A DNA stretch of 45,161 nucleotides, taken from Escherichia phage KW1E_UTAR. Under the pieces are notes generated by a model, which saw only the letters and a program-made list of their open reading frames with translations, was not told the origin of the DNA and made no database searches. Both the position numbers and the translations under genes were made by a program. The stretch lies in sequence record MZ506873; one strand, given 5' to 3'. Below, in pieces: positions 4,637 through 37,253 of this stretch (position 1 is its first letter; the number at the start of each line of letters is the position of its first letter).

Positions 4637-5115
4637 ACTGGCGAGTCGCCGCGATAGCTATGGTCTGTGCCGGGGCTTTCTTTCTGGGCGGTTACTGGAA
4701 GGGCCACCATGACGCCGACCAGTCCGCCACGGTTGAACGGCTAACCAATGAGCGCGACAGTATGGCCCGGACGATCGAGTCGTACCGGAACACCAACGAC
4801 AAATTGAGCGAGATCGCCAACAATGCAAAAGAGAAAGAAGAACGCGCGCGGACTGTGGCTTCTGCCCTTCGTCATGATGCTGACAGCTTGCGCGGACAGC
4901 TACAGGGCATCGTCGACGCTTATCGTCCCGGAACTACCAGCAGGGGCGCGCCAGCCAGCCAGGTCGTCGGTCTGCTTGCCGGACTGCTTGACGAAGCAAA
5001 CCGAACGTCAAACGAGCTATCAGAAGAGGCTGAACGATATCGTCGCGCCGGGGAGCAATGCGAATTAAGCTATGATGCCGTAAAACGCGCTCAAACGCTC
5101 TTAGAGAAGAGGTAA
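4633..5115 (+). CDS. Rz: i-spanin (Rz-like)
   Basis: N-terminal transmembrane segment, coiled-coil periplasmic domain, position directly after endolysin; ATGA overlap. Confidence 0.75.
   Translation: MNWRVAAIAMVCAGAFFLGGYWKGHHDADQSATVERLTNERDSMARTIESYRNTNDKLSEIANNAKEKEERARTVASALRHDADSLRGQLQGIVDAYRPGTTSRGAPASQVVGLLAGLLDEANRTSNELSEEAERYRRAGEQCELSYDAVKRAQTLLEKR
4823..5068 (+). CDS. Rz1: o-spanin (Rz1-like lipoprotein), embedded in the +1 frame of Rz
   Basis: Signal peptide with lipobox LTAC (LLPFVMMLTAC), short Pro-containing mature part, wholly inside the Rz gene. Confidence 0.7.
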   Translation: MQKRKKNARGLWLLPFVMMLTACADSYRASSTLIVPELPAGARQPARSSVCLPDCLTKQTERQTSYQKRLNDIVAPGSNAN

Positions 5116-5117
5116 AA

Positions 5118-5145
5118 GAAAGGCGACCGATAGGCCGCCTTTTTG
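5118..5145. terminator. bidirectional terminator between convergent gene blocks
   Basis: AAAGGCG-...-CGCCTTTTT hairpin flanked by A and T runs; between Rz (+) and the 5176..5940 gene (-). Confidence 0.5.
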
Positions 5146-5175
5146 ATTTAAACGTCACAGCTTCGCGCTGACGCT

Positions 5176-5940
5176 TCAGAATTCACGCTTAGGAGTGAAA
5201 TTAAAAGACATAACCTCACCGCCTAAATTAACAAGGCCGGAATGGTAAATCTTCCACCCTTCACCTTTTCCATCCACTTCGGACGGTCCAGAACCGTAGA
5301 TGATGCCTTCCATTTCTTCAGCGGATAACGCGGCGTAGCAGGTCAGGTCTGCCCGGCTGTCGATGGTCTTCGAGTCCTGTGCGCGCACCAGCTTCAGGCA
5401 CATAAGCAGGTCCCAGACGTCCATCGCGGTGAACTCCCGTCGCTTCAACGCGCTGAACATGGCAGCTACGCGGGCTGCGCTTCGTTCCTGTCCGTTGTCG
5501 TAACCTTCGCCGCGCTCGTTCAGCAGTTCAACGCCGTCCAGCAGGATCGCGCCAGCGGAACGCGGAAGACGTTCTTTGTCCATCTGATCCTGGGCGGCCT
5601 GATCCACGAACTTCGCGAAGTTATAGCGGGCCACTTCTGCGCGAGACATCGACTCACCAGTCCCGACAGCAAGATATTCACTGGCAGGGTACAGGCATTC
5701 AACCAGGCAATAGTCGACCTGGAATTCCACGCCAGGACAGTTAGGGTCTTCGATAATCCATTCGAACGTCACCAGCGTCTTGCCGTTGTGTTCTGTGGCG
5801 AAGCGTGGGATTACCAGCGCCTTTGATGGAGGTGTGTTTGTCTGATCAGGGCGTTCAAGGTCGCCGCGCGCAGGGTCATAGACGTGAATCATACCCAGCG
5901 TAGGCTTATACCCGTTGAACTTGTTGTTCATGTTAATCAT
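5176..5940 (-). CDS. hypothetical protein
   Basis: 254-aa ORF in leftward operon; the C-terminal half looks all-alpha, but no motif I can name confidently. Confidence 0.55.
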   Translation of the reverse strand: MINMNNKFNGYKPTLGMIHVYDPARGDLERPDQTNTPPSKALVIPRFATEHNGKTLVTFEWIIEDPNCPGVEFQVDYCLVECLYPASEYLAVGTGESMSRAEVARYNFAKFVDQAAQDQMDKERLPRSAGAILLDGVELLNERGEGYDNGQERSAARVAAMFSALKRREFTAMDVWDLLMCLKLVRAQDSKTIDSRADLTCYAALSAEEMEGIIYGSGPSEVDGKGEGWKIYHSGLVNLGGEVMSFNFTPKREF

Positions 5941-6193
5941 GCTGTGTCATCCTCATTTTTGCTATTTGACGGACCGCGATCTTGCGGTCGATGATTTTTA
6001 TCAGGTCGGCGTTTTCGACCTGCTGGTCGCGGTTAACGTTCGACGCGTTATTTCCTTTGATTCGCTCAAAGTAACGCCAGCGCCCACCCAGAATGTAGCG
6101 CCCAAATTCGCGACCGTTGAACGTTACGAACACTAAATCGTTGCGAGCGTGAAACGTTCCCGGCTTGTGCGCCCTCTTCCCGTTATATGCCAT
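5933..6193 (-). CDS. hypothetical protein
   Basis: 86-aa ORF in the same operon, overlapping neighbours by a few nt. Confidence 0.45.
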   Translation of the reverse strand: MAYNGKRAHKPGTFHARNDLVFVTFNGREFGRYILGGRWRYFERIKGNNASNVNRDQQVENADLIKIIDRKIAVRQIAKMRMTQHD

Positions 6194-6396
6194 TAGTAAA
6201 GCCTCAGTGTGAAGCCGTTCCGTTCCTTCGCCGTGTTGGGTCTGTTCGGGTCGACTTGTCGATAAACATGGATTGTGACCTTGTAGCCCATCTTCTGAGC
6301 GACAACCAGGACCGCGAAGTCGAAGCTGAACACCAGTGCCGTGATCACGATAAGCTTCACGACCTTCCTGACTACAGCGCTGATATTACGCTTCAC
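6193..6396 (-). CDS. small membrane protein
   Basis: 67 aa with hydrophobic stretch VVKLIVITALVFSFDFAVLVVA. Confidence 0.4.
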   Translation of the reverse strand: MKRNISAVVRKVVKLIVITALVFSFDFAVLVVAQKMGYKVTIHVYRQVDPNRPNTAKERNGFTLRLY

Positions 6397-6408
6397 GGAT
6401 AACCCCTG

Positions 6409-6954
6409 TCAACTTTTGTTTAGCGCGCGTTTCCTGCGCATGTTGTCCCGGTTCTTGCGGCGGCGTTCTGCTGCCTGTTCCGGCGTCTCGTTCTTCCGGC
6501 GTTCACGTTCGCGCTGGGCTGGCGTCATCACCTGGACACGTTCACCGTTCACAGTGACACGCGGAGGGATTAGCTCACCATCGATCGCCACGGTGTTCTG
6601 TGCGACAGCATATTCGACGTAATGCTGTGCAACATCACGGATGAACTGTGGCTGTGTACCATTAAGAAAGCGAATGATGTCAGAATATCCTATCAGGTCC
6701 AGCTTTTCGACCCGATCGTTTTCACCAGCATAAAGCGACCCTGACTTCGAACCATCGATCGCACTGAAGCGTACAACGTTCGCCCCGGTAAGCGAGCGAA
6801 CCACGCCTTTGCATCGAACGATTTTACCATCGCGAATAAACAGGTCGCCGTCCTGAAGCACCACGTGCCACGAAAGCAGTACGCCGGGACGGACCAGTAA
6901 CGCCAGGTTACGCGCTGCTGACATAACTGCCGATCTGTAGTGGAATGATGACAT
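6409..6954 (-). CDS. hypothetical protein with strongly basic C-terminal tail
   Basis: C-terminus RERERRKNETPEQAAERRRKNRDNMRRKRALNKS suggests nucleic-acid binding. Confidence 0.5.
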   Translation of the reverse strand: MSSFHYRSAVMSAARNLALLVRPGVLLSWHVVLQDGDLFIRDGKIVRCKGVVRSLTGANVVRFSAIDGSKSGSLYAGENDRVEKLDLIGYSDIIRFLNGTQPQFIRDVAQHYVEYAVAQNTVAIDGELIPPRVTVNGERVQVMTPAQRERERRKNETPEQAAERRRKNRDNMRRKRALNKS

Positions 6955-6955
6955 G

Positions 6956-7441
6956 TTAGTATTCCTGCCAGTTGTAATTCTCAGCTTCAGGGGTTACACC
7001 GCCAACCACCGTGTTGGGTGCACTAATTACTCTCTCTTCTGGCGTCATGTGCCCTGTCTGGGGGAGTATCACACCATGACGGATAAGGGTGTCCTGAAGG
7101 TCTTCAACGCGCTCAATGGCGAGGCGCAGACGCGATAGCTGATATCCCTTGCGACGAACCCAGTCAGCCATTGCGACCTTCTGGTCAAGACGCCAGGCGC
7201 TGACATGCGCGTCCTTCTTCGTCTTGCGCGCCCGGTTCCATCCCTTCGTCTTCAGGCAGTGATCGATCAATCCCTGGTCGACTACCGGGTTCTTGTCCCA
7301 GTCCCACGGAAGGCTTATGTGATAGACGAAGTGTTCTGTCTCTTTGATGACGACACGGCGTTCAGCGAACAGAGCGGAAGCACCATCCCCGCCGCGATTC
7401 CAGTCGCGATAGCGGTACACGTACACGTTTTTATCAATCAT
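6956..7441 (-). CDS. hypothetical protein
   Basis: 161-aa ORF, operon context. Confidence 0.5.
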   Translation of the reverse strand: MIDKNVYVYRYRDWNRGGDGASALFAERRVVIKETEHFVYHISLPWDWDKNPVVDQGLIDHCLKTKGWNRARKTKKDAHVSAWRLDQKVAMADWVRRKGYQLSRLRLAIERVEDLQDTLIRHGVILPQTGHMTPEERVISAPNTVVGGVTPEAENYNWQEY

Positions 7442-7803
7442 TTCGAACCCTCCACGCGGGATCTTGAGTAAAGAAAACCTTCAGCCATATAAACAGCGGT
7501 ACGGGTGGCGGCTGTCCGCTTATACACGTCGCCGGAATCCCCCTTCGCGACCACTCCGTCAGTGATATGCTTGAACTCTTCGCCCGTCATGCCGTTAAGG
7601 TGAGCCGTAACGCCTAACAGACAGGCCACAGCCAGCGCGTCGCGTGACTTCGGTAACATGTTCGGCGTGTCGCGGGCCACGGTGTCGTGGCAATACTGGA
7701 ATGCGGCTTCGTCCGGCATCTTTTCGGCAGCGCCGACGGTCCCAACATAACAGCTACCAACGACACAGGCAGCGGCGATAGCAATGGCAGTGATGCGTTT
7801 CAT
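7438..7803 (-). CDS. putative lipoprotein or secreted protein
   Basis: N-terminal signal peptide MKRITAIAIAAACVVGSC with lipobox-like VGSC. Confidence 0.55.
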   Translation of the reverse strand: MKRITAIAIAAACVVGSCYVGTVGAAEKMPDEAAFQYCHDTVARDTPNMLPKSRDALAVACLLGVTAHLNGMTGEEFKHITDGVVAKGDSGDVYKRTAATRTAVYMAEGFLYSRSRVEGSK

Positions 7804-7821
7804 GTCTTTATTCCTTATCGG

Positions 7822-8592
7822 TTACAGAGTCCAGCGACCAGTGTTATTGACCATCATGTCGTGTGCGCCGACTCGCTTGTTCATCTTGAACACGTATACG
7901 CGGTCAAGCGTCCCTTCCTGCCCGTAGCAGATGTTAGCCACCTGCTTCTTAACCTGCTTGCTGAAGTATGCCGCGTCAGTCGATTCGCGGATGACGTCGA
8001 CCGTTCTGGTTGAGCAGTCGATCGAGACAGCGACAGAACCTTCGAGCGACATACGGGACGCGTCTACCGGGTAAGACGGGACCACTTCAGCCTGGGCCGG
8101 GCTGACCAGTGAAGAGAAGACCAGCGCAGCACCAGCGAACGCCAGGCCGATTTTGTGCGACAGGCTGTTCCGACGGGCCAGTGTTTGAGTGATGGCCTGA
8201 TCCTGGGCGGATTTTTTAGTCATCATTCTGGCGCGGAAGTCACGACAGAAATCAGAATCATCGTCACGAAGTGAAGCGTAGCCAGCATCATTATCAATCG
8301 CGTCATTCATGCGCAGCGCTTCAGCGTGGTAAGCGTCCATCTGTTCTGACACGCGAAGGGCAGCTTCAGCACAATAAATAACAGTGCTCAGGTGGTTAAA
8401 GAAGTCACGACCAGAACGACGCTTCAGAACATTCTCAACGTTGAACAGGATGTCCGCTGGCAGTTCGTTAGACAGTTCACACAGGATTACGCGAAGGTCT
8501 GATTTACTCTCTTTCAGCTTCAGACCAGCGGCGCGCAGTTCGTAAACGCGGGTCATAATTTTCAGTGCAGAGCGGATAGCGATAGAGTTCAT
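7822..8592 (-). CDS. membrane-anchored protein (cytoplasmic N-domain, one transmembrane segment, periplasmic C-domain)
   Basis: Internal hydrophobic segment IGLAFAGAALVFSSLVSPAQA around residue 160. Confidence 0.55.
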   Translation of the reverse strand: MNSIAIRSALKIMTRVYELRAAGLKLKESKSDLRVILCELSNELPADILFNVENVLKRRSGRDFFNHLSTVIYCAEAALRVSEQMDAYHAEALRMNDAIDNDAGYASLRDDDSDFCRDFRARMMTKKSAQDQAITQTLARRNSLSHKIGLAFAGAALVFSSLVSPAQAEVVPSYPVDASRMSLEGSVAVSIDCSTRTVDVIRESTDAAYFSKQVKKQVANICYGQEGTLDRVYVFKMNKRVGAHDMMVNNTGRWTL

Positions 8593-8643
8593 TTTCGTGT
8601 TCCTTTGGATTTTGGCGGAACGTTGTGTCCCGCCTTGAGATAC

Positions 8644-8671
8644 ATATTACAGGAAGCGAATATTACGTCAA
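8644..8671 (-). promoter_or_regulatory. sigma70-like promoter (TTGACG-N16-TAATAT) on the minus strand
   Basis: Minus strand reads TTGACGtaatattcgcttcctgTAATAT, upstream of the 7822..8592 gene. Confidence 0.4.
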
Positions 8672-9000
8672 GAAGATATTTCGACTTTAATCGCAAAAAC
8701 TTCAACCGGGTCCGGCCCGAAGTGAGGATGTGTGATGGTCTTCACAGTGTAGCCACGGTAAGCGACATCGATCCGGCGACTGGCATCACCGCGCGGCGGG
8801 TAGCCCAGCGTAATGACCAGGCGGTCATATTTCCGACCCTCCAGGCGCTTCCTCCAGTACGGCGTGACAAGGCGATACTCTTCCACCTTCTCACCGCTTA
8901 CCATCTGGTCGAAGTAGACCTTCTTCACTGCTAACTGAAGCGTTACCATAGCCGTTTCACTCCTTCCTTCGCCATTTGCCATTCCATGTGATTGGCGCAC
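8668..9000 (-). CDS. ASCH/DUF3850-like domain protein (tentative)
   Basis: LAVKKVYFDQMVSGEKVEEYRL...VITLGY pattern resembles ASCH-type PUA-like domains; start may be the internal ATG at 8948. Confidence 0.45.
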   Translation of the reverse strand: MRQSHGMANGEGRSETAMVTLQLAVKKVYFDQMVSGEKVEEYRLVTPYWRKRLEGRKYDRLVITLGYPPRGDASRRIDVAYRGYTVKTITHPHFGPDPVEVFAIKVEISS

Positions 9001-9311
9001 TCTTCCATACAGAACTCTTCGATTAGGTCGTCGTCACCTTCGCTGTCGATGCGCATAAGCGCGTGTTCTGGAAGCATACCCCATCCGCTGCCGCTCTTTA
9101 TTTTGTCGCCGCTCGGATGCCTGGCGTTAAGGTCGCCAATCACCAACCAGGAAAAAGCCCCGTCTGTTCTCTTTGGCTTGAACTGGTACACTCCGCCGTC
9201 CGGCGCTTCGACAAGGCTGTCCTTATCGTGCCGACTCTGACAGCGCACCGTCTTGCCTGTGTGTGGTCCTTTGATGACCATCGCAAGGCATCCTGGGACT
9301 AATGGTTTCAT
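8943..9311 (-). CDS. hypothetical protein
   Basis: 122-aa ORF, operon context. Confidence 0.45.
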   Translation of the reverse strand: MKPLVPGCLAMVIKGPHTGKTVRCQSRHDKDSLVEAPDGGVYQFKPKRTDGAFSWLVIGDLNARHPSGDKIKSGSGWGMLPEHALMRIDSEGDDDLIEEFCMEECANHMEWQMAKEGVKRLW

Positions 9312-9346
9312 GTTGGTCCTTATGGCCCCATCTGGGCCGTGGTGGG

Positions 9347-10774
9347 TTATTCGTCTAACAGTGGATTGTTAGCCATTATCTTATAGTCGATGTACATCTG
9401 AACGGCGTTTTCGCCACGCCCTTCGGTCCGCTCAACGATGTGGTGGGCCTTGACCAGCGCGGACAGCGCGCTAATGACAGACCCGCGTGGCATCCCGGTG
9501 ATCTCCGTCACCATGCGGCGCGCTGCTGATACAGATTCGCGGCCCTTCAGTTCGGCGCAGAACACGCGATACACCTCTTTCTGGTTATCGGTCCAGCGGT
9601 GACGGGTTCGACGCTCTTCCGGCGTTTCCTGCTTCTCTTCCTTCTGACCGACCACTTCGGCGGAGTTATCCAGGATGTACGTCATGAACGGTGATTTGTT
9701 CACTCCGGGGATCTCCGTCGGCATGTCTTCCAGCTTGATCGTGAACTGGGATTCGTACTCGTCAAGCAACGCCTTCTCTTCGGCCTTCGGGACCGACAGC
9801 GTCGGGCGACCACACAGTCGAAGCGTGGCATTGAACCCGCCGCCGCGCTGCTTGTCCGGGGTCAACATGACACCGTCGCCGTCCTTCTCACGGCGAAGAG
9901 ACCACGTCTTCCACATCGCGCCCTTCGCCGCGCCACCGCCTCGCGAATCCATCTTGCCGTCACCGGACAGGCTGGCCTTCGTCGGGTGGGACAGGAAAAG
10001 CCCGGCAGCCCCGATCGATTTGCAGAACAGCAGAGAGTTCACGCTAATGGCTTGCTGGTCATCGTTGCTGTTCTCTTCCAGCGACGAACCGTTCGACCGG
10101 ATGCAATGGGTCATGAGCGCGGCCTTAGTGTCGAACACCACCAGCTTGATCGGCTCACCAGCGGCCCAGTCATACAGCGTATTGATGTGGTTCGTCAGCG
10201 CTTCGCCTGGGCGGATGCCTTCCTTCGTCTTAACGAACGCCATAAGGTTCGGGAAGTTCGCAGTCACATAGACGCGGTCCTGAAGCTGGACGTCTTCAGC
10301 CAGTTCGATAGCGCGCAGCATAGCGCGGAATCCTTCCGGGTCCTCTGAATACACCACGACCCGCCCAGGCACCACGCGGAACGCTCCGAGGAAGTGACCT
10401 ATCTGTGTGTCGGCGATGCAAGCGGCGAGGCGCGCCACCACTGTCGACTTCCCTGTCCCTGGCCCGGCGACCAGCTCATTGATGGTGTTCGAATACAGCA
10501 TGTGCTCCACCACGACGTCGGGGACGCGGCGATCGGACACCTTCTTCTTCGTCCCGGTCAGTAGGTCCAGCTTGCGCTGAAGGTCGGGAACAGAATCGTT
10601 CTCTTTGGCGTGGAACGCGTCCATGTCCCGATAGACTTCGGCCCACTCTTCCGGCGTCAGTTCGACCTGAAAATCGTCGTCTGTCTCACTTGTCGGAACG
10701 ACCATTTCGACAGGCATGTTCTGGTTGTCTTGCGACGTCGGTTCGACACCGCCGCCATTCTCTAAGTTATCCAC
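9347..10774 (-). CDS. AAA/RecA-like ATPase with C-terminal winged-helix domain (possible replication initiator, helicase or regulator)
   Basis: Walker A GPGTGKST, Walker B-like LVVFDT, C-terminal HTH-like segment; GTG start with AGAGGG upstream. Confidence 0.7.
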   Translation of the reverse strand: MDNLENGGGVEPTSQDNQNMPVEMVVPTSETDDDFQVELTPEEWAEVYRDMDAFHAKENDSVPDLQRKLDLLTGTKKKVSDRRVPDVVVEHMLYSNTINELVAGPGTGKSTVVARLAACIADTQIGHFLGAFRVVPGRVVVYSEDPEGFRAMLRAIELAEDVQLQDRVYVTANFPNLMAFVKTKEGIRPGEALTNHINTLYDWAAGEPIKLVVFDTKAALMTHCIRSNGSSLEENSNDDQQAISVNSLLFCKSIGAAGLFLSHPTKASLSGDGKMDSRGGGAAKGAMWKTWSLRREKDGDGVMLTPDKQRGGGFNATLRLCGRPTLSVPKAEEKALLDEYESQFTIKLEDMPTEIPGVNKSPFMTYILDNSAEVVGQKEEKQETPEERRTRHRWTDNQKEVYRVFCAELKGRESVSAARRMVTEITGMPRGSVISALSALVKAHHIVERTEGRGENAVQMYIDYKIMANNPLLDE

Positions 10775-10825
10775 AGATTTTGACCCTCTCTTGACTGAAC
10801 ATTTTGTCGCGACTGTCTCGCTTTC

Positions 10826-11121
10826 TTAAGACAATACAGCATAGACGCGGCGCGCGCAACGTTCCGACGTCTAAAACATGCATATTACGACCTCACTATC
10901 AGTATGTTGTTTAACCACAGTAAGACAAAAATCCCAAAAGTGGCCCGATATCAATGACTTACGCGTGTCTTAACTTTCCGCCCCCTAATAAATAAAAACA
11001 AGTAAGACAAAACACCTCACGCGTACACTTAACTACTATATATTCCACCCTTGAGGGGTGGATATATATTAGTAGTGTGTAATAAGTGCATCTTGAGGAA
11101 AACAGACAGTCTTGTCTTAAC
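10826..11121. repeat. Cluster of five TAAGACA/TGTCTTA iteron-like repeats in an AT-rich divergent intergenic region
   Basis: TAAGACA at 10827, 10921, 11003; reverse complement at 10966, 11113; palindrome CCACCCttgagGGGTGG at 11045-11061. Confidence 0.6.
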
Positions 11122-11152
11122 TGTTCGACAAAGTAGAATCATACCTCAGTCG

Positions 11153-11161
11153 TGATATAAT
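11153..11161 (+). promoter_or_regulatory. extended -10 promoter element (TGaTATAAT)
   Basis: Perfect TATAAT at 11156-11161 preceded by TG at 11153-11154; about 22 nt upstream of the ATG at 11184. Confidence 0.4.
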
Positions 11162-11183
11162 GAACGCCACAGGAGGACGCAAC

Positions 11184-11696
11184 ATGTCAGACGAAATTAA
11201 ACACGTAACGAAGCGCGGAGTCGGAAGGCAGTTAACCTACACTGACGACGTGCCTGAACGCCTCACAGACTTCTTCGACCGTGATGTGGATGAATTCATC
11301 GTCCATAACTTCACGACCGCTGAGAAGTCGAACTATCGCGTCAAGCCCATCCCTACACTGGCAGGGTTCTGTCGCGAACTGGGTATCGCACCGTCAACGC
11401 TGCACAGATGGATGTCCGTCGAATCGCAACTGACACAGGAGCAGCGCGATGAATTGTGCAATGCTTACTCACGCGCCCGCACGCTACAGGAAAATATCGT
11501 CACCCAGATCGGCATGATGACTAATGGCACGTTCGCCGCTTTCATGCTGAAATGTAACTTCGGATGGCGTGACAACACGGAAGTGAAGACCGACGAGAAC
11601 GTGAAGCCTATCCGTGTCAAGATCGTCAGCGAACGACCTGTCGATGTAGACATCCAGACCACAGAACAGAAACCGATCGAGTGGGGTGATGACTGA
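11184..11696 (+). CDS. terminase small subunit-like HTH protein (tentative)
   Basis: VKPIPTLAGFCRELGIAPSTLHRWM HTH pattern resembles TerS families; start ATG 11184 with AGGAGG 7 nt upstream. Confidence 0.5.
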   Translation: MSDEIKHVTKRGVGRQLTYTDDVPERLTDFFDRDVDEFIVHNFTTAEKSNYRVKPIPTLAGFCRELGIAPSTLHRWMSVESQLTQEQRDELCNAYSRARTLQENIVTQIGMMTNGTFAAFMLKCNFGWRDNTEVKTDENVKPIRVKIVSERPVDVDIQTTEQKPIEWGDD

Positions 11697-32114: not shown

Positions 32115-32695
32115 AAACGATTCGACTATATGGACGACTGGGCGCGCTCTTTGGGCGCGTTCATCGCCTCCACATCGAAACCTGTTCCGAAGCTATCCGG
32201 GCGCTGTGCGTGACCGTTGACGGCTTCGAACAGTACCTTCGCGACAGTAAGAGCATGGGGATCAGGTTCGCGTGTTTTAAGGGGAAACGTAATGTCGGCG
32301 TGGACCAGTTAGCGCTGGGCTTGGGCGAAGAGGATTTTCGCATCGCGCCAGTTCTGGCAGGTGCGAAGAAGGGCGGCGTATTCCAGACCATTTTGGGCGC
32401 TGTCATGGTCGTGGCTGGCATCGTGGCGACGTTTATCCCCGGTGCACAGGCGGCGGCCCCTTACCTTATCGCTGGCGGGATCTCCACTATGGCTGGCGGC
32501 GTAATCCAGCTATTGACGCCACAACCGCCTGGAATGAGCCAGCGGCAGGATGCGGATAATAAGCCGTCATACGCGTTCGGGCAGCCAGTGAACACCACGG
32601 CTCAGGGGAACCCAGTCGGCATCCTCTGGGGGGAGCGTGAAATCGGCGGCGCTGTAATTGGCGCGGGCATTATTGCAAACGAAGTGAGGAACTAA
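32105..32695 (+). CDS. tail assembly protein (lambda I-like)
   Basis: Position between K-like and J-like genes; Gly/Ala-rich hydrophobic C-terminal region. Confidence 0.7.
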   Translation: MALKTIRLYGRLGALFGRVHRLHIETCSEAIRALCVTVDGFEQYLRDSKSMGIRFACFKGKRNVGVDQLALGLGEEDFRIAPVLAGAKKGGVFQTILGAVMVVAGIVATFIPGAQAAAPYLIAGGISTMAGGVIQLLTPQPPGMSQRQDADNKPSYAFGQPVNTTAQGNPVGILWGEREIGGAVIGAGIIANEVRN

Positions 32696-35600
32696 TGGAC
32701 CAGCCTGACAACATGAAGATCATCGAAAAGGCTACCGGGAAAGTAGTGCGCGGCGCGAAGGGTGGTGGCGGAAGCGTTCACACGCCAAAGGAAGACCCGG
32801 ACAGCCTGACAAGCCTGGCTGTCGTTCGTATGCTTCTGGCCCTTGGGGAAGGTGAGTTCGAATCGTTCGGCACTGATGACCTGAAGAAGCGCGTCATGCT
32901 GAACGGTACGCCGATCATGAACGCTGACGGGACCTATAACTTCAATGACGTCGTGATCGACTACCGCCCAGGAACATCTGGTCAATCCCACATTGCCGGG
33001 ATGCCAGCGGTCGAGTCTGAAACGGGTGTCGGCGTGGACCTGAAGGCCACGAACGAATGGACCCAGGCCCTGACAAACACGTCAATCGACGCTGTTCGCG
33101 TTCGAATCGGATTCCCCACCCTTCTACAGCAGAAGTCAAACGGGGACCGTGTAGGCTCGCGCATCGACTACACGATCTTTATCCGCAACCTGTCCGGCGG
33201 TGAGCTGTGGAAGAAGGACTTCAGCGCGATCGGCAAGACTACAACGCTGTATGAACGCGACCATCGAATCGACCTTCCACCATCACAGACAGGGTGGATT
33301 GTGGCTGTGCGACGTAACACGGCAGATAGCACAGACAGCAACCTGGTTAACCCGACTAAAATCCAGGCTTACACAGAGATCGTGGACCTTAAGCTGTCCT
33401 ACCCTAACACCGCGCTTTTGTACGTGGAGTTTAACGCGAAGCTTTTCCAGTCCATCCCGAAAGTGTCCATTAAGGCGAAGGGCCGCAAAATCCGCGTACC
33501 TCAGAACTATGACCCGATCACGCGGACGTATAACGGTTCGTGGGACGGCTCGTTCAAGTGGGCGTGGAGCAATAACCCGGCGTGGGTCTTCTTCGACTGC
33601 GCAACGGAACCGCGCTTCGCTCTGGGTAATAAGATTAACGCGTCCATGCTGGATAAGTGGGAACTGTACCGCATCGCGCAGCGTTGCGATCAGCTTGTCC
33701 CAGACGGTCGTGGCGGAGAGGAACCGCGCTACCTGTGCGACGTCTATATCCAGGGGCGTGAACAAGCCTGGACCGTCCTGAAGGACCTGGCGGCTATCTT
33801 CGCCGGAATGACGTTCTGGGGTGGCGGAATGCTGAACGTGCTTTCCGATCGTCCTGGCGATGTTAAGCAGGTGCTTACCCGCGCAAACGTGGTGAACGGT
33901 AAATTCCAGCGCCACGGCGGAAGCGGGCGAAACCGTCGCAGCGTGGCTAACGTGTCATGGGATGACCCGGCGAACCATTACCAGACGAACGTGGCTGTCA
34001 CGCCTATGATTGAGCTTGTGAACCGCTACGGATGGACTGAACCACTGGAACTGTCGGCGATCGGCTGTACTCGCTTGGGCGAAGCGCAGCGTCGCGGCAA
34101 GAACGCGCTTATCACCAACGTGACCGACGGGACCACGGACTTCAGCATCGGCATGGAAGGGATCGAATTTATGCCGGGCGACATCATCGGCATCGCCGAC
34201 GATACCTTCAGCGGCGGACAGTTCGGCGGACGTGTCGTTCGCGCAAATGGAGCGCGCTCTGTCATCCTCGATCGACCAGTGAACGAAGTTACGAAGGCGA
34301 ACGACTGGATCCTGTTCCGACAGGCCACAGACCCGGACGTTTCCCGCTTCCAGATCGCGTCCATTTCTGCTGACCGGAAGACCATCACCGTGACGACTGA
34401 CATCCTGAAAGGCGTAAACCCGTTCACGCCGTGGGTCGTCGACACTCAGGCGATCGCCATTACCCAGCATCGCGTGATCTCCGTTACCTGGAACGAGCAG
34501 GACAACACGTTCGACTGTGTGGTTCTGAAACATGACCCGTCAAAATATGACGCGGTTGACTTGGGCGCTCACCTGGATGACAGGCCGACCACCCTGATCC
34601 CGCCGGGATTCATGGAAGTGCCGAAGAACATCCAGATCACCAGTTACGAAATGCTCGTTCAGGGTACGCGTCAAACCGTCCTGCGAACCACTTGGGACAA
34701 GGTGAAGGGCGCGGTGGTGTACGATGCTCAGTGGCGTCGCGACAATAACGACTGGATTAACGTTCCGTCCACGTCCACAGAAGGATTCGAGGTTCAAGGG
34801 ATCTTCTCTGGCGATTACTGGGTTCGCGTTCGTGCGACAAACAGTTCTGGCGTGTCATCCCCGTGGGGGGAGGCAGTCAAGACCGGAATCACTGGTCGCG
34901 AAGGTGCTGTTCCTGTTCCGCAAGGTCTGAAGGCTACCAGTCAGAACTGGGGCATCAAATGGAACTGGCTAGCAGGTCGACAGGCTGACACGTCTGACAT
35001 CGCGTTCACCGAACTGGAACACTCAGTCAAGGGACTGTCCGGCTATGGCCCGTTCACGCTCCTGACGACCGTGGCCTTCCCTGCTGACTCGTTCGTTCAG
35101 GATGGTCTTGCCTTCGGTCAGTATATCCGCGTCCGCGCGCGTTACGTTGACCGCTTGGGGAATAAGTCAGACTGGTCGGCAGTGGTTGAGGGTAACGCTA
35201 ACGAAGACGCTGGCGACTACCTAGCTGGAATTACCGACGACCTGCTGACGTCGGAAGACGGCAAGGAGTTAATGAACCAGATTAACACCATGCCGGAAGC
35301 GGTCTATGAATCCATGCTGACCGACTATAAGACCCTTCTGGACGTGAAGGCTGGGGAAGGTAATCAGGTCGCCAGAATCCAAATCGCCTACAACGTGGCA
35401 GTGGAAGCGAACGAGGCAGTCGCGCAGCTTGAAACGCTGGTGGGTTCACGTATCGACGACGCTGAAGCGGCTATTCACACACTACAGACCGCCCAGGCAT
35501 CAATTGAGCAGTCATTCGCGCAGTATCAGCAGACGGTTAGCGCGAAATTCGGTGACGTTCAGGCGTCATTCGATGAACAGGGCAACCTGATCGACGCACA

Positions 35601-36252
35601 GGGGAATCGCATCACTCAGCAGGGCGTCAGAATTGACGATCAGGGCCGACTGATTGACGCGCAGGGTAACAGGATCGCGCAAGCTGAAGCGGCTATCAGC
35701 CAGAACCAGACGGCGATCGCGAACGCTAACCAGGCTCTTGCTACTTACAAGACTCAGGTGGCGGCCCAGTTTAACCAGCAGTCGGCAGCGATTGAGCAGA
35801 AGATGACGTCTCAGTTCACGGCGACAGGCGGTTCAGCGATCTACAGCCTGAAGGCTGGCGTGACCTATAACGGCGTTTACTATGACGCTGGTATGACGCT
35901 GTCAACCATCGCCAACGGCTCAGGAGTGAAGACCCGCGTAGCGTTCAAGGCTGACCAGTTTATCATCGCACACCCTACAACTGGCGGCCTGTTCGCGGCG
36001 TTCGCCGTGGTGGGGAACGATGTGTTCATTGATACGGCACGAATCAGGGCGGCGTCCATTTCGTTCGCACAGATCTCCGACACGCTTCAGTCGTCGAACT
36101 TTGCGTCCGGTCAGAACGGGTGGAGACTGCTGAAGAACGGCACGTTCGAAATTAACAGCGCCAGCGGTAACGGTCGCCTGTTAATCCAAAATAACCAGAT
36201 CCTTGTTTACGATGCATCTGGTCGCCTTCGTGTTCGTTTTGGTCTGTGGTAA
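32695..36252 (+). CDS. central tail fibre / host specificity protein (lambda J-like)
   Basis: 1185 aa; conserved J-like block NPAWVFFDCATEPRFALGNKI...RIAQRCDQLVPDGRGGEEPRY; position. Confidence 0.85.
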   Translation: MDQPDNMKIIEKATGKVVRGAKGGGGSVHTPKEDPDSLTSLAVVRMLLALGEGEFESFGTDDLKKRVMLNGTPIMNADGTYNFNDVVIDYRPGTSGQSHIAGMPAVESETGVGVDLKATNEWTQALTNTSIDAVRVRIGFPTLLQQKSNGDRVGSRIDYTIFIRNLSGGELWKKDFSAIGKTTTLYERDHRIDLPPSQTGWIVAVRRNTADSTDSNLVNPTKIQAYTEIVDLKLSYPNTALLYVEFNAKLFQSIPKVSIKAKGRKIRVPQNYDPITRTYNGSWDGSFKWAWSNNPAWVFFDCATEPRFALGNKINASMLDKWELYRIAQRCDQLVPDGRGGEEPRYLCDVYIQGREQAWTVLKDLAAIFAGMTFWGGGMLNVLSDRPGDVKQVLTRANVVNGKFQRHGGSGRNRRSVANVSWDDPANHYQTNVAVTPMIELVNRYGWTEPLELSAIGCTRLGEAQRRGKNALITNVTDGTTDFSIGMEGIEFMPGDIIGIADDTFSGGQFGGRVVRANGARSVILDRPVNEVTKANDWILFRQATDPDVSRFQIASISADRKTITVTTDILKGVNPFTPWVVDTQAIAITQHRVISVTWNEQDNTFDCVVLKHDPSKYDAVDLGAHLDDRPTTLIPPGFMEVPKNIQITSYEMLVQGTRQTVLRTTWDKVKGAVVYDAQWRRDNNDWINVPSTSTEGFEVQGIFSGDYWVRVRATNSSGVSSPWGEAVKTGITGREGAVPVPQGLKATSQNWGIKWNWLAGRQADTSDIAFTELEHSVKGLSGYGPFTLLTTVAFPADSFVQDGLAFGQYIRVRARYVDRLGNKSDWSAVVEGNANEDAGDYLAGITDDLLTSEDGKELMNQINTMPEAVYESMLTDYKTLLDVKAGEGNQVARIQIAYNVAVEANEAVAQLETLVGSRIDDAEAAIHTLQTAQASIEQSFAQYQQTVSAKFGDVQASFDEQGNLIDAQGNRITQQGVRIDDQGRLIDAQGNRIAQAEAAISQNQTAIANANQALATYKTQVAAQFNQQSAAIEQKMTSQFTATGGSAIYSLKAGVTYNGVYYDAGMTLSTIANGSGVKTRVAFKADQFIIAHPTTGGLFAAFAVVGNDVFIDTARIRAASISFAQISDTLQSSNFASGQNGWRLLKNGTFEINSASGNGRLLIQNNQILVYDASGRLRVRFGLW

Positions 36253-36290: not shown

Positions 36291-36605
36291 ATGCCGCAAG
36301 GCTTGCAAGCTTGGGACGCGTCAGGGCGTATTGTGGTGGACCTGGGGGACTATTCGACAAGGTTCATCAGGTCACTGACTGTCAACCTACCAGCCAATCA
36401 GGTCGCCGTTAATGTGGCGGTGGCTGGCGTTACCGACACCGGACACTTCGCCGTAATCACGAAGGGAAACGAGTCGATCGTGTCTGGTCTGCTTATGACG
36501 TCGTTAACTGCCGTAACGAGGAACGGCGGGGTCTGGGTTATTGCCCTTGACGGGGCGCTGACTCTTGCCCGATCTGTAGTGGTCGACATTTACGCGTTTA
36601 CATAA
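36291..36605 (+). CDS. hypothetical protein, paralogue of the next gene (tail-associated?)
   Basis: N-terminus MPQGLQAWDASGRIVVD matches MSGFQVWNEAGALTID of the 36615 gene. Confidence 0.45.
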   Translation: MPQGLQAWDASGRIVVDLGDYSTRFIRSLTVNLPANQVAVNVAVAGVTDTGHFAVITKGNESIVSGLLMTSLTAVTRNGGVWVIALDGALTLARSVVVDIYAFT

Positions 36606-36614
36606 GGAGGGGGT

Positions 36615-37253
36615 ATGTCAGGTTTTCAGGTATGGAATGAGGCTGGCGCTCTGACCATTGATTCAGATAACAGGCACACGATCGTGACCGCTCAATCGAC
36701 GCCAGGGCTAACTGACGTCGGGGCATATGGCGGGGCCACGCCATTCGGAGACTGGAAGGAGTTAGGATATTTGACCCCGGCAGCGATGCCAGTCCAGAAC
36801 AATTTATACTGGGTCAGGCTCAACACTAACGCGTGGTGCTTCCCTGGCGCGTGGATGTTTAAGCCTGGAACATTCCAGATCATCACGACGTCAAGAACTC
36901 AAGCGCTTACTTCTGGAATTCTTGACGTTTATAATTCTGCTGGTGGCCTGATCTGGTCGGCTGTATCAGCCCAGAACATGCCACGAACAAGGCAGATTGT
37001 TTCCATCACTTCCGCCGCCGACAATGCTGTAGCAAGCGTGACGCCTGGGTTCAGTCCGTGGTTCCTTATGGGGGCCTGTCCGGGTAACTACTCATACGAC
37101 GGCGAAACGACTGGGTATTCAGGTTTAATTTTTAGATGGACGGGAACCCAGTTACAATATGCATGGGTTAGAAAGAACCAGAAGACATTCGCGGAAACGT
37201 TCGGCGGAAGAGGCGGATTAAGAATTCCACTGGCTGAATTCCCTGGGAGGTAG
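36615..37253 (+). CDS. hypothetical protein, paralogue of the previous gene (tail-associated?)
   Basis: Strong RBS AAGGAGGGGG; shared N-terminal motif with the 36291 gene. Confidence 0.55.
   Translation: MSGFQVWNEAGALTIDSDNRHTIVTAQSTPGLTDVGAYGGATPFGDWKELGYLTPAAMPVQNNLYWVRLNTNAWCFPGAWMFKPGTFQIITTSRTQALTSGILDVYNSAGGLIWSAVSAQNMPRTRQIVSITSAADNAVASVTPGFSPWFLMGACPGNYSYDGETTGYSGLIFRWTGTQLQYAWVRKNQKTFAETFGGRGGLRIPLAEFPGR

What the first reader, a model, noticed from the sequence alone, without database searches (positions are those of the whole stretch)
7438..8592. Membrane-anchored protein plus lipoprotein: candidate superinfection-exclusion module
Two adjacent leftward genes encode a bitopic inner-membrane protein (cytoplasmic 150-aa domain, one transmembrane segment, periplasmic 90-aa domain) and a signal-peptide/lipobox protein, driven by their own promoter (8644-8671). 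In a phage with no lysogeny genes, envelope-targeted pairs like this often block entry of related phages.
Basis: inference. Interest (0 to 1): 0.4.

Follow-up and report, generated by a model that had tools for sequence, protein, structure and literature searches.

The report
Phage TonB-mimic receptor blocker, plus orphan partner
The larger gene ends in a small exported domain that resembles the end of the bacterial TonB protein and belongs to a phage family thought to jam the phage's own outer-membrane receptor from inside, so the exclusion idea holds for it, while the second gene remains an exported protein of unknown role.

Summary
Both genes are real and at the stated coordinates. The window is Escherichia phage KW1E_UTAR.

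P1 (7822-8592, minus strand, 256 aa):
- Its last 88 residues belong to PHROG 25729. This is the family of IsaakIselin SIP-1, a TonB-C-terminal-like protein predicted in 2025 to block the PqqU/YncD receptor from the periplasm.
- The window also encodes the matching YncD-type receptor-binding pair (36291-37253).
- All 40 listed phage records carrying a SIP homologue also carry that receptor-binding protein.
- Here the gene lies far from the tail genes, in a leftward operon behind a promoter and 5' hairpin conserved in eight relatives.
- It is fused, through an internal signal-peptide-like segment with a conserved AxA site, to a mosaic N-terminal region that is replaced by unrelated sequence in relatives.
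- Relatives carry a plain secreted SIP in the same slot. I therefore infer cleavage and release of the domain.

P2 (7438-7803, 121 aa):
- It is an exported four-helix protein with two conserved cysteines and no known relative.
- The lipobox is ambiguous: the cysteine is missing in 4 of about 20 relatives.
- Its role is unknown.

Verdict: the exclusion reading is supported for P1 by homology and is unproven for P2. This is a new variant of a putative known kind. Nothing has been tested experimentally.

The parts
8644..8671 (-). Sigma-70-type promoter, TTGACG-16 nt-TAATAT, overlapping the stop codon of the upstream DUF3850-like gene
   Evidence: Found by the scan. The -35 hexamer is invariant; the -10 hexamer is invariant in six relatives and TAATAC in two more, while upstream coding sequence diverges. 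The 28-bp motif is unique in the window. Function is inferred.
8614..8634 (-). Conserved 8-bp GC-rich stem-loop at the predicted 5' end of the transcript (GGCGGGAC-ACAAC-GTTCCGCC)
   Evidence: RNAalifold consensus of 8 pairs, including one compensatory A-U/G-C pair and two G-C/G-U pairs. Different hairpin sequences occupy the same place in L100, L101 and L102. No Rfam match. A role as mRNA stabiliser or regulator is inferred.
8601..8606 (-). Shine-Dalgarno-like AAAGGA, 8 nt upstream of the P1 ATG
   Evidence: Read from the sequence. AAAGG is invariant in six relatives.
7822..8592 (-). P1, 256 aa: N-terminal extension, internal signal-like segment and TonB-C-terminal-like SIP domain
   Evidence: ORF. 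23 homologues, mostly on contigs of about 45 kb. dN/dS 0.16-0.29. Identical to QYA57179.1.
8155..8592 (-). P1 residues 1-146: predicted cytoplasmic, helical, mosaic N-terminal region with a HAEALRMN motif at residues 89-96
   Evidence: AF2 helices with pLDDT 70-85 up to about residue 107. Relatives replace this region with unrelated N-terminal sequences (I count about five types by eye), all joined at HAEALxMN. The same N-terminal type is fused to other C-termini that lack the hydrophobic segment and SIP domain. No Pfam or PHROG match.
8089..8154 (-). P1 residues 147-168: positive flank, 16-residue hydrophobic core (I148-V163) and SPAQA; predicted signal peptidase I cleavage after A168
   Evidence: Hydropathy. 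Small residues at -1 and -3 are conserved in all fused homologues: AQA, VQA, THA, TRA. The twin arginine is not conserved (RR, RH, RQ, RK, RN), so this is not a Tat signal. Cleavage itself is inferred.
7825..8088 (-). P1 residues 169-256: SIP domain (PHROG 25729) with a TonB-C-terminal-like fold, the YPxxAxRxSLxG motif and two conserved cysteines (C193, C222)
   Evidence: PHROG 25729 at E 7e-22. BLASTP to IsaakIselin SIP-1: 45% identity, E 5e-14. The family profile hits only TonB among PDB sequences. AF2 pLDDT 84-95 with helix-strand-strand-helix-strand order. Top Foldseek hits are FusB and TonB C-terminal domains. Near-invariant residues listed.
7438..7803 (-). P2, 121 aa: exported four-helix protein of an orphan family
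   Evidence: ORF. AF2 four-helix bundle, pLDDT about 90 for residues 30-119. C61 invariant and a second cysteine present in every member (aligned with C38 in most). dN/dS 0.06-0.21. No match in Pfam, PHROG, PDB, PADLOC or NCBIfam, and none with a known function in BFVD.
7729..7803 (-). P2 leader, residues 1-25 (MKRITAIAIAAACVVGSCYVGTVGA): lipobox-like VGSC18 followed by a signal peptidase I-like VGA|AE
   Evidence: The same leader precedes unrelated mature domains, including SIP domains in P0041, P0042 and P0046. The cysteine is absent (GSS) in P0034, P0039, P0046 and the L013 gene. The AxA site is always kept.
36291..36605 (+). Homologue of IsaakIselin RBP-2 (QXV80561), directly after the gpJ-like gene
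   Evidence: tblastn: 43% identity, E 2e-18. The position after gpJ matches KLB22 MVRL052.
36615..37253 (+). Homologue of IsaakIselin RBP-1 (QXV80560), the YncD/PqqU-type receptor-binding protein
   Evidence: BLASTP: 50% identity over 215 aa, E 2e-71. It does not resemble T1 gp31 of the FhuA type. 58 phage records carry it, including all 40 listed SIP carriers.
32695..36252 (+). gpJ-like central tail fibre gene (1185 aa), which anchors the receptor-binding locus
   Evidence: ORF. The KLB22 homologue MVRL053 is annotated as tail fibre protein.

Best explanation
Proposed mechanism. P1 is a precursor of a receptor-jamming exclusion protein.

1. A conserved host-type promoter transcribes the gene, probably early in infection.
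2. Residues 147-168 direct the C-terminal 88 residues across the inner membrane through the Sec pathway.
3. Signal peptidase I cuts after A168.
4. The freed disulfide-bonded domain copies the fold of the TonB C-terminal domain. It binds the periplasmic face of the TonB-dependent transporter that this phage's own receptor-binding pair recognises, most likely PqqU (YncD).
5. This makes the receptor unusable for further phage of the same receptor type. For a strictly lytic phage, it also keeps progeny from being wasted on infected cells and envelope debris.

Other parts.
- The 146-residue N-terminal region is an exchangeable add-on. After cleavage it would remain as a membrane-tethered cytoplasmic fragment of unknown role.
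- P2 is a second, fast-diverging exported protein made from the same transcript. It is probably another binder of an envelope component, but its target is unknown.

What is shown: the gene structures, the homology, the fold, the co-occurrence with the receptor-binding proteins, and the promoter conservation.
What is inferred: export, cleavage, the identity of the target, the exclusion phenotype, and any role for P2.
For: Family and fold.
- The C-terminal domain matches PHROG 25729 at E 7e-22.
- It matches IsaakIselin SIP-1 (QXV80559): 45% identity over 71 aa, E 5e-14.
- PMC12124388 predicts that SIP-1 binds the periplasmic side of PqqU, calls it TonB-C-terminal-like, and proposes it as an Llp-like exclusion factor.
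- Independent checks here agree. The family profile hits only six PDB sequences, all TonB C-terminal domains, aligned over the YP...EG motif.
- The only relevant sub-threshold Pfam and NCBIfam hits are TonB.
- AF2 gives helix-strand-strand-helix-strand with pLDDT 84-95.
- The top Foldseek PDB hits are FusB, H. pylori TonB and E. coli TonB C-terminal domains.

Cognate receptor-binding proteins.
- The window encodes RBP-2 and RBP-1 homologues after gpJ (E 2e-18 and 3e-63; 50% identity).
- IsaakIselin and IME347 both carry this trio and are experimentally YncD-dependent.
- Preprint 10.64898/2026.04.02.716166 ties this protein family specifically to YncD.
- All 40 listed SIP-carrying phage records are among the 58 records (of 50,697) that carry RBP-1. 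They span Drexlerviridae, HK639-like temperate phages and this group.
- T1's FhuA-type locus has unrelated proteins, gp31 and Cor, in the same positions.

Export and cleavage.
- Every homologue has an export signal directly before E-V-x-P-x-Y-P: a lipobox, an ordinary signal peptide, a P2-type leader, or the P1-type internal segment.
- The AxA site is conserved.
- Two conserved cysteines are present.
- In relatives L100 and L101 the same slot, behind the same promoter and hairpin, holds a plain secreted SIP of 105 or 113 aa.
- Only 10 residues separate the hydrophobic core from the YP motif. TonB needs a spacer of roughly 100 residues to reach the outer membrane (established knowledge).

Precedent.
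- T5 Llp jams FhuA from the periplasm (PMC9586334).
- The Rtp accessory protein is reported to bind the periplasmic face of LptD.
Against: - No experiment exists for P1, and none for SIP-1. The family's function rests on an AlphaFold complex and gene position.
- The TonB similarity is weak by every statistic: E 0.03-0.24; 13.9 bits against the 24.6-bit Pfam cut-off; Foldseek E 0.076 and TM-score 0.53.
- Unlike every other listed carrier examined, the gene is not next to the receptor-binding locus.
- A 146-residue cytoplasmic extension ahead of a signal peptide is unusual. It might hinder Sec targeting or mean that the protein stays anchored.
- The AF2 confidence of the hydrophobic segment is below 50.
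- No signal-peptide predictor (SignalP, LipoP) could be run.
- The receptor of KW1E_UTAR has not been determined.
- For P2 there is no positive functional evidence at all.
Confidence: 0.6

Rival explanations
1. P1 stays uncleaved as a bitopic inner-membrane protein. Its TonB-like domain, held close to the inner membrane, acts on the energy-transducing machinery itself. For example, it could pair with the host TonB C-terminal domain or with ExbD. That would shut down TonB-dependent uptake in general and block any phage or colicin that needs TonB, rather than jamming one receptor.
For: - The ORF is continuous, and the N-terminal extension is kept in more than 15 homologues.
- The linker is only 10 residues.
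- TonB C-terminal fragments are known to dimerise, and when overproduced in the periplasm they inhibit transport (my own knowledge of Howard et al. 2001, not checked here).
- AF2 draws one long helix through residues 129-159.
Against: - The AxA site is conserved in all fused forms.
- The hydrophobic core is short (16 residues) and only moderately hydrophobic.
- The same slot in L100 and L101 holds freely secreted forms.
- Prophage homologues carry lipoboxes LVAGC-T or LLAGC-T/A, whose residue after the cysteine is not Asp, which by the +2 sorting rule predicts outer-membrane anchoring.
- The family occurs only together with one receptor-binding family. A general TonB poison would not be expected to show that pattern.
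Confidence: 0.15
2. The two genes are unrelated in function. P1 is the exclusion factor. P2 does something else in the envelope, for example regulating lysis timing in the manner of an antiholin, or inhibiting a host periplasmic enzyme. It sits next to P1 only because this slot collects exported cassettes.
For: - P2 has no similarity to any exclusion family or solved structure.
- Its leader is rich in Ala, Gly, Ser, Thr and Cys, as in signal-anchor-release segments (read from the sequence).
- JVSB2 keeps a P2-like gene without any SIP.
- L101 has a SIP without P2.
- The same leader is used on unrelated mature domains.
Against: - The P1-P2 order is kept in window, KLB22, KLB16, L010, L013, L014, L017 and L100 despite only 33-63% P2 identity.
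- P2 is not in the lysis cassette.
- There are no conserved catalytic-looking residues, only cysteines and glycines.
Confidence: 0.45
3. The long ORF is not the working product. Translation starts internally (for example at M133/M134 here) and gives an ordinary secreted SIP precursor. The upstream 130 codons are then a separate or decaying gene fused in frame by chance.
For: - Standalone SIPs of 105-113 aa exist in the same slot.
- Methionines occur near the junction in several homologues, because the EALxMN motif supplies one.
Against: - No internal start or ribosome-binding site is conserved. Several homologues have no Met between the motif and the hydrophobic segment (P0006, P0007, P0013).
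- No Shine-Dalgarno sequence precedes M133.
- The N-terminal part is under constraint as protein: whole-P1 dN/dS is 0.29 against KLB22, and AF2 pLDDT is 70-85.
- Several unrelated N-terminal modules are all kept in frame.
Confidence: 0.1

Closest known systems
IsaakIselin SIP-1 (QXV80559, bas10_0024) and its relatives in Drexlerviridae and HK639-like prophages; PHROG 25729
   Same: - Homologous domain: 38-45% identity, with the shared YPxxAxRxSLxG motif, two cysteines and a late arginine.
- TonB-C-terminal-like fold.
- Always preceded by an export signal.
- Always found in genomes that carry the YncD-type RBP-1/RBP-2 pair.
   Different: - SIP-1 is a standalone protein of about 110 aa encoded next to gpJ and the receptor-binding genes.
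- P1 is 256 aa, carries a mosaic cytoplasmic N-terminal region ahead of an internal signal-like segment, and lies about 28 kb away in a leftward operon behind its own promoter.
- The function of SIP-1 is itself only predicted.
Phage T5 Llp, the outer-membrane lipoprotein that jams FhuA (PMC9586334)
   Same: - A small phage protein acting from the periplasm on a TonB-dependent transporter that is the phage's own receptor.
- It prevents re-infection and loss of progeny on debris.
   Different: - No sequence or fold relation was found: no solved structure matched either model with E <= 0.001.
- Llp is a lipoprotein. P1's domain is probably released as a soluble protein.
- Llp is encoded next to its receptor-binding gene.
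Cor of phages T1, phi80 and N15 (FhuA-directed exclusion)
   Same: Cor occupies the same genomic position in T1 that SIP occupies in YncD-type Drexlerviridae: convergent with gpJ, after two small genes.
   Different: - Not homologous. hhalign aligns only the signal peptide, with probability 6%.
- The T1 partner gp31 is also unrelated to the window's RBP-1.
C-terminal domain of TonB and of the TonB homologue FusB (PF03544)
   Same: - The YP motif and the helix-strand-strand-helix-strand fold.
- TonB is the only family detected in PDB sequence, Pfam, NCBIfam and fold searches.
   Different: - Below every curated threshold.
- No N-terminal TonB-type anchor and no proline-rich spacer.
- Carries a disulfide pair.
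- A mimic, not an energy transducer.
Accessory exclusion protein of phage Rtp, acting on LptD (as reported in preprint 10.64898/2026.04.02.716166)
   Same: An accessory protein of the gpJ-proximal receptor locus, reported to bind the periplasmic face of the receptor.
   Different: - A different receptor class and, according to the preprint, an unrelated protein family.
- Not compared by sequence here.

Membership tests
SIP-1 / PHROG 25729 (putative receptor-directed exclusion proteins of YncD-type loci) | Significant sequence similarity to family members | tested here: met
   PHROG 25729 at E 7e-22, residues 172-253. BLASTP to QXV80559 at E 5e-14. tblastn finds 42 phage records. 86 proteins found with the family profile.
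SIP-1 / PHROG 25729 | Conserved core motif YPxxAxRxSLxG, two cysteines and a C-terminal arginine | tested here: met
   Y174, P175, A178, R180, S182, L183, G185, C193, C222 and R253 are at least 90% conserved over 103 sequences.
SIP-1 / PHROG 25729 | Export signal immediately before the domain | tested here: met
   Hydrophobic I148-V163 plus AQA|E. It is internal rather than N-terminal.
SIP-1 / PHROG 25729 | Encoded beside gpJ and the RBP-2/RBP-1 genes | tested here: not met
   P1 is at 7822-8592 and the receptor-binding genes are at 36291-37253. No SIP follows RBP-1; a 616-aa ORF does.
SIP-1 / PHROG 25729 | Same genome carries the YncD-type RBP-1/RBP-2 pair | tested here: met
   RBP-1 is 50% identical with E 2e-71, and RBP-2 has E 2e-18. 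40 of 40 listed SIP records carry RBP-1.
SIP-1 / PHROG 25729 | Binds the periplasmic face of PqqU and excludes same-receptor phages | not testable with these tools
   Only single-chain prediction is available here. The published evidence for SIP-1 is an AlphaFold2 complex.
TonB_C domain (Pfam PF03544) | Score above the Pfam gathering threshold | tested here: not met
   13.9 bits against a 24.6-bit cut-off, E 0.075. NCBIfam TonB at E 0.054.
TonB_C domain (Pfam PF03544) | TonB C-terminal fold | tested here: inconclusive
   The top Foldseek PDB hits are FusB and TonB C-terminal domains, with probability 0.98 but E 0.076 and target TM-score 0.53. The secondary-structure order matches.
TonB proper (energy transducer) | N-terminal membrane anchor plus a long proline-rich periplasmic spacer | tested here: not met
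   The hydrophobic segment is at residues 148-163, with only 10 residues before the YP motif and no proline-rich region.
Cor (T1, phi80, N15) | Sequence or profile similarity to Cor | tested here: not met
   hhalign of the family profile against T1 Cor gives probability 5.9%, aligning the signal peptide only.
T5 Llp and T4 Spackle (periplasmic exclusion proteins with solved structures) | Fold similarity of P1 or P2 | tested here: not met
   Foldseek against PDB gives no hit with E <= 0.001 for either model, and neither protein is named in the top 50.
Bacterial lipoproteins (for P2) | Lipobox [LVI][ASTVI][GAS]C with an essential cysteine | tested here: inconclusive
   V-G-S-C18 fits the loose PROSITE-style pattern but not the strict one. 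Relatives have (I/L/V)-(L/I)-G-C. The cysteine is replaced by Ser in 4 of about 20 relatives, and a conserved AxA site follows. LipoP and SignalP are not available.
Tat signal peptides (for the P1 internal segment) | Conserved twin-arginine motif | tested here: not met
   RR in the window, but RH, RQ, RK and RN in homologues.
Known anti-phage defence proteins (PADLOC) | Match to a defence-system model | tested here: not met
   No hits for P1 or P2 at E <= 0.1.

The most novel reading that the evidence does not exclude
P1 is a two-in-one precursor. A single cut by signal peptidase yields a soluble TonB mimic that jams the outer-membrane receptor. It also yields a membrane-tethered cytoplasmic module that acts at the inner membrane, for example against incoming DNA or a host defence. 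The cytoplasmic module is swapped between phages at the HAEALxMN joint, while the receptor-jamming half stays matched to the tail genes. P2 would be a further interchangeable periplasmic binder from the same cassette pool, which shares one leader peptide. That would make this promoter-hairpin slot a dedicated, modular envelope-defence locus of a lytic phage family.
Probability: 0.15. Interest if true: 0.7.

Novelty: new variant of a known kind. Interest (0 to 1): 0.5.

Why it matters
- Receptor-jamming exclusion proteins have been shown structurally for T5 Llp on FhuA, and reportedly for Rtp on LptD. The TonB-mimic class is so far only a 2025 prediction.
- This locus gives that class an independent line of support: the same domain travels with the same receptor-binding family even when it is moved 28 kb away.
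- It also provides a natural set of variants (secreted, lipidated, leader-swapped, N-terminally fused) with which to test how such a domain must be delivered.
- It shows that exclusion genes of lytic siphoviruses can lie outside the tail region, where current receptor-locus-based annotation would miss them.
- If the domain really blocks PqqU, it predicts the receptor of KW1E_UTAR and of the candidate family Mavericviridae. It would also be a tool for shutting one TonB-dependent transporter from inside.

Tried and rejected
- Pfam, PADLOC and NCBIfam scans of both proteins gave nothing above threshold.
- The Rfam scan of 6000-9500 found nothing.
- P2: Foldseek against PDB and BFVD gave no functionally named match. 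The profile against PDB sequences gave only noise. An exhaustive profile search of 1.8 billion proteins gave 14 hits, all unnamed. tblastn against phages found only KLB22 and KLB16. The AFDB50 fold library was not available.
- The 'foot protein' label on the KLB16 and one metagenomic homologue has no support in any search and was disregarded.
- Tat export for P1 is rejected because the twin arginine is not conserved.
- Cor homology is rejected. T1 gp31 homology of the window's RBP-1 is rejected.
- Strong diversifying selection on P2 is not seen as a gene-wide average: dN/dS is 0.21 against 0.13-0.16 for neighbours. P2 is nevertheless the most divergent gene of the operon.
- Check that the Klebsiella hosts of close relatives carry PqqU. 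The scan relies on exact peptide patterns, so this is inconclusive. PMC12124388 lists K. pneumoniae as a PqqU producer.
- My first promoter pattern search had a spacing error and found nothing. It was corrected.
Full report
WHAT IS THERE

The window is the complete 45,161-bp genome of Escherichia phage KW1E_UTAR. Both proteins are identical to QYA57179.1 and QYA57180.1 on a contig of that exact length. The region studied (7300-8800) is 92% identical to Klebsiella phage vB_KM5a1-KLB22. KLB22 belongs to the proposed family Mavericviridae (PMC11845039).

- P1, 7822-8592, 256 aa.
- P2, 7438-7803, 121 aa.

Both are annotated only as hypothetical proteins in relatives. Both are under purifying selection, with dN/dS 0.06-0.29, so they are genuine genes. 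No integrase or repressor is annotated in KLB22. PMC11445585 describes KW1E_UTAR as lacking lysogeny genes.

PROMOTER AND TRANSCRIPT

TTGACG-16 nt-TAATAT lies at 8644-8671. As a bare consensus match it is no better than chance: 7 sites were found where 3.8 +/- 2.0 are expected. Conservation makes the case instead.
- The -35 hexamer is invariant. The -10 hexamer is invariant in KLB22, KLB16 and three metagenomic relatives and is TAATAC in two further relatives. The coding sequence just upstream is unalignable in the more distant of these relatives.
- The 28-bp motif occurs once in the genome.
- An 8-bp GC-rich hairpin (8614-8634) follows directly. Its sequence changes between relatives but its pairing is kept, with one compensatory pair.
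- I read the hairpin as a 5'-terminal stem-loop of the transcript. That reading is an inference.

The unit is longer than two genes. The P2 stop overlaps the next start codon. The leftward genes continue to the first terminator-like site with a strong stem (10 pairs), at 5119-5142. In KLB22 this leftward cluster runs from the repA gene to the lysis cassette.

P1, C-TERMINAL DOMAIN

Family.
- Residues 172-253 match PHROG 25729 at E 7e-22.
- tblastn with residues 135-256 finds 42 phage records.
- In Drexlerviridae (IsaakIselin, Skenny, IME347) the homologue is a secreted protein of about 110 aa. It is the last gene of a three-gene block convergent with gpJ.
- In the temperate phages HK639 and LMessi it is a 120-aa protein with a canonical lipobox, in the same neighbourhood.

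Published function.
- The IsaakIselin protein (QXV80559) is 'SIP-1' in PMC12124388.
- That paper predicts with AlphaFold2 that it binds the periplasmic side of PqqU (YncD), and finds it TonB-C-terminal-like by Foldseek.
- It proposes SIP-1 as an exclusion factor analogous to T5 Llp.
- P1 aligns to it with 45% identity and E 5e-14.

My own checks agree with the TonB relation, though weakly.
- A profile of ten family members hits only six PDB sequences at E <= 10. All six are TonB C-terminal domains (E 0.03-0.24), aligned across YP..A....EG.
- The only relevant sub-threshold Pfam and NCBIfam hits are TonB.
- An AF2 model built on 103 sequences gives helix-strand-strand-helix-strand with pLDDT 84-95.
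- The best Foldseek PDB hits are the C-terminal domains of FusB (a TonB homologue, probability 0.98, E 0.076), H. pylori TonB and E. coli TonB.
- Two cysteines (C193, C222) are conserved in at least 90% of 103 sequences. This fits a periplasmic disulfide.

THE MATCHING RECEPTOR-BINDING GENES

- The other two genes of the IsaakIselin block, RBP-2 and RBP-1, have clear homologues in the window directly after the gpJ-like gene. They lie at 36291-36605 (E 2e-18) and 36615-37253 (E 3e-63, 50% identity over 215 aa).
- IsaakIselin and IME347 are experimentally YncD-dependent (PMC8594841).
- Of 50,697 phage records, 58 carry an RBP-1 homologue and 42 a SIP homologue. All 40 listed SIP carriers are among the 58. 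They come from three unrelated phage groups.
- T1, which uses FhuA, has unrelated proteins in both positions: gp31 and Cor.
- The SIP domain therefore travels with one receptor-binding family. Only in the KLB22/KW1E group are the two separated by many kilobases.

HOW P1 IS BUILT, AND WHY I INFER CLEAVAGE

- The only hydrophobic stretch is I148-V163. It has a positive upstream flank and is followed by SPAQA|EVVPSYP.
- Residues at -1 and -3 are always small in the fused homologues: AQA, VQA, THA, TRA.
- In every standalone homologue the signal peptide ends at the same point, just before E-V-x-P-x-Y-P or its equivalent.
- The twin arginine is not conserved, so Tat export is unlikely.
- Only ten residues separate the hydrophobic core from the YP motif. 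TonB needs a long proline-rich spacer to reach outer-membrane transporters (established knowledge). An anchored P1 could therefore not reach PqqU.
- In relatives L100 and L101 the same slot, after the same DUF3850-like gene, promoter and hairpin, holds a plain secreted SIP of 105 or 113 aa.
- I conclude that the working part is the released domain, and that the N-terminal 146 residues are an addition.

The N-terminal addition.
- It is helical in the model, with pLDDT 70-85 up to about residue 107.
- It has no family match.
- It is mosaic. About five unrelated N-terminal types (my count by eye) are all joined through a HAEALxMN motif to the conserved SAQDQ...KIGLAFAG segment.
- The window's N-terminal type also occurs fused to other, non-membrane C-termini, for example in a different 61.6-kb phage contig.
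- Its role is unknown.

P2

Export signal.
- The leader MKRITAIAIAAACVVGSCYVGTVGA|AE is a clear export signal.
- An exhaustive profile search found 14 proteins that share this leader almost exactly but have very different mature parts.
- Three leader-bearing proteins have a SIP domain as the mature part: P0041, P0042 and P0046. The leader therefore behaves as a shared handle for exchangeable periplasmic cassettes.

Lipoprotein status.
- The cysteine is at position 17 or 18 in most members.
- It is serine in P0034, P0039, P0046 and the L013 gene, whereas the downstream AxA site is always kept.
- Lipoprotein status is therefore undecided.

Mature protein.
- The model is a four-helix bundle with pLDDT about 90.
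- C61 is invariant and a second cysteine is present in every member, aligned with C38 in most.
- It has no match in PDB, and none with a known function in BFVD, by fold. It has no match in PDB, Pfam, PHROG, PADLOC or NCBIfam by sequence.

Position and divergence.
- It is the most divergent gene of the operon: 61% identity to KLB16 and 33-34% to L013 and L017, against 48-84% for its neighbours.
- It keeps its position after P1 in eight genomes.
- It is absent in L101. A P2-like gene is present without any SIP in JVSB2.
- I can say only that it is an exported, probably binding, protein. An exclusion role is possible but unsupported.

MECHANISM AND RIVALS

The best-supported account is this. The promoter is of host sigma-70 type, so expression is probably early. 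P1 is inserted through the Sec pathway and cut after A168. The freed TonB-like domain occupies the periplasmic face of the phage's own TonB-dependent receptor, most likely PqqU. This blocks further adsorption or injection by same-receptor phages and protects progeny from debris, as shown structurally for T5 Llp on FhuA (PMC9586334).

The rivals are:
- An uncleaved, inner-membrane-anchored protein acting on TonB or ExbD.
- P2 having an unrelated envelope role.
- Internal translation initiation giving an ordinary secreted precursor.

Each is set out with its evidence in the rival-explanations section.

COMPARISON AND NOVELTY

- P1's domain is a member of the SIP-1 / PHROG 25729 family on sequence, motif, export signal and co-occurrence. 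It fails the family's usual genomic position.
- It resembles but does not qualify as a Pfam TonB_C domain.
- It is unrelated to Cor. No solved structure, and therefore neither Llp nor Spackle, matched by fold at E <= 0.001.
- New here are the relocation to a leftward operon behind a dedicated conserved promoter and hairpin, the in-frame fusion to swappable cytoplasmic modules through an internal signal peptide, and the leader-sharing cassette pool that includes P2.
- This is a new variant of a kind that is itself still only predicted. Nothing here has been tested experimentally.

Noticed in passing
window 8614-8634 (-): A GC-rich 8-bp hairpin lies right after the promoter. Its pairing is kept in eight relatives although the sequence differs (one compensatory pair, two wobble changes). 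It has no T-run, so it is not a terminator. It may be a 5' mRNA stabiliser or an operator.
   Followed up: partly
window 8305-8328 (-), P1 residues 89-96; also P0013, P0020, P0022 and others: The motif (A)HxEALxMN occurs one to four times in P1-like proteins and marks the joints between unrelated sequence modules. It may be a recombination joint or a structural repeat. The window's N-terminal type is also fused to C-termini that lack the hydrophobic segment and SIP domain, for example in a 61.6-kb phage contig (L015).
   Followed up: partly
L100 5001-5698; L101 2554-2895; L009 8001-8342; L102 2311-2649: The slot after the DUF3850-like gene is variable. It can hold a standalone SIP plus a P2-like gene (L100), or a single P2-leader::SIP gene with no P2 (L101). 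P2-leader::SIP genes also occur beside Dam genes in a different gene neighbourhood, which in L009 includes DNA polymerase A and an SNF2 helicase (L009, L102).
   Followed up: partly
window 6193-6396 (-), with a promoter-like site at 6383-6412 (-): A third small membrane protein lies in the same leftward operon: 67 aa with an N-terminal hydrophobic segment. It is preceded by the best promoter match in the scanned region 5000-11500 (10 of 12 positions).
   Followed up: no
L099 3214-3576 (Klebsiella phage JVSB2, MVRN051): JVSB2 has an RBP-1 homologue (49% identity) and a P2-family gene but no detectable SIP. This raises the question of what, if anything, masks its receptor.
   Followed up: partly
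window 8668-8949 (-): The gene upstream of the promoter matches phrog_625. Its homologues in relatives carry Pfam DUF3850. Its stop codon lies inside the -35 hexamer.
   Followed up: no
L019-L098 (genome scan with E. coli PqqU): The 80 best PqqU loci come from Escherichia, Citrobacter, Salmonella, Enterobacter, Buttiauxella, Serratia, Rahnella and others. None is from Klebsiella, although several phages with this RBP/SIP set infect Klebsiella. The scan depends on exact peptide patterns, so this may be a miss.
   Followed up: partly
window 37260-39110 (+): In this phage group a 616-aa ORF follows RBP-1 where Drexlerviridae have the SIP gene. The shorter (512 aa) KLB22 protein at the same position carries an endosialidase-chaperone profile, suggesting a lateral fibre.
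   Followed up: no
KLB16 MVRK021 and protein P0026: The P2 homologues are labelled 'foot protein' in two public records. No search here gives any basis for that name.
   Followed up: yes
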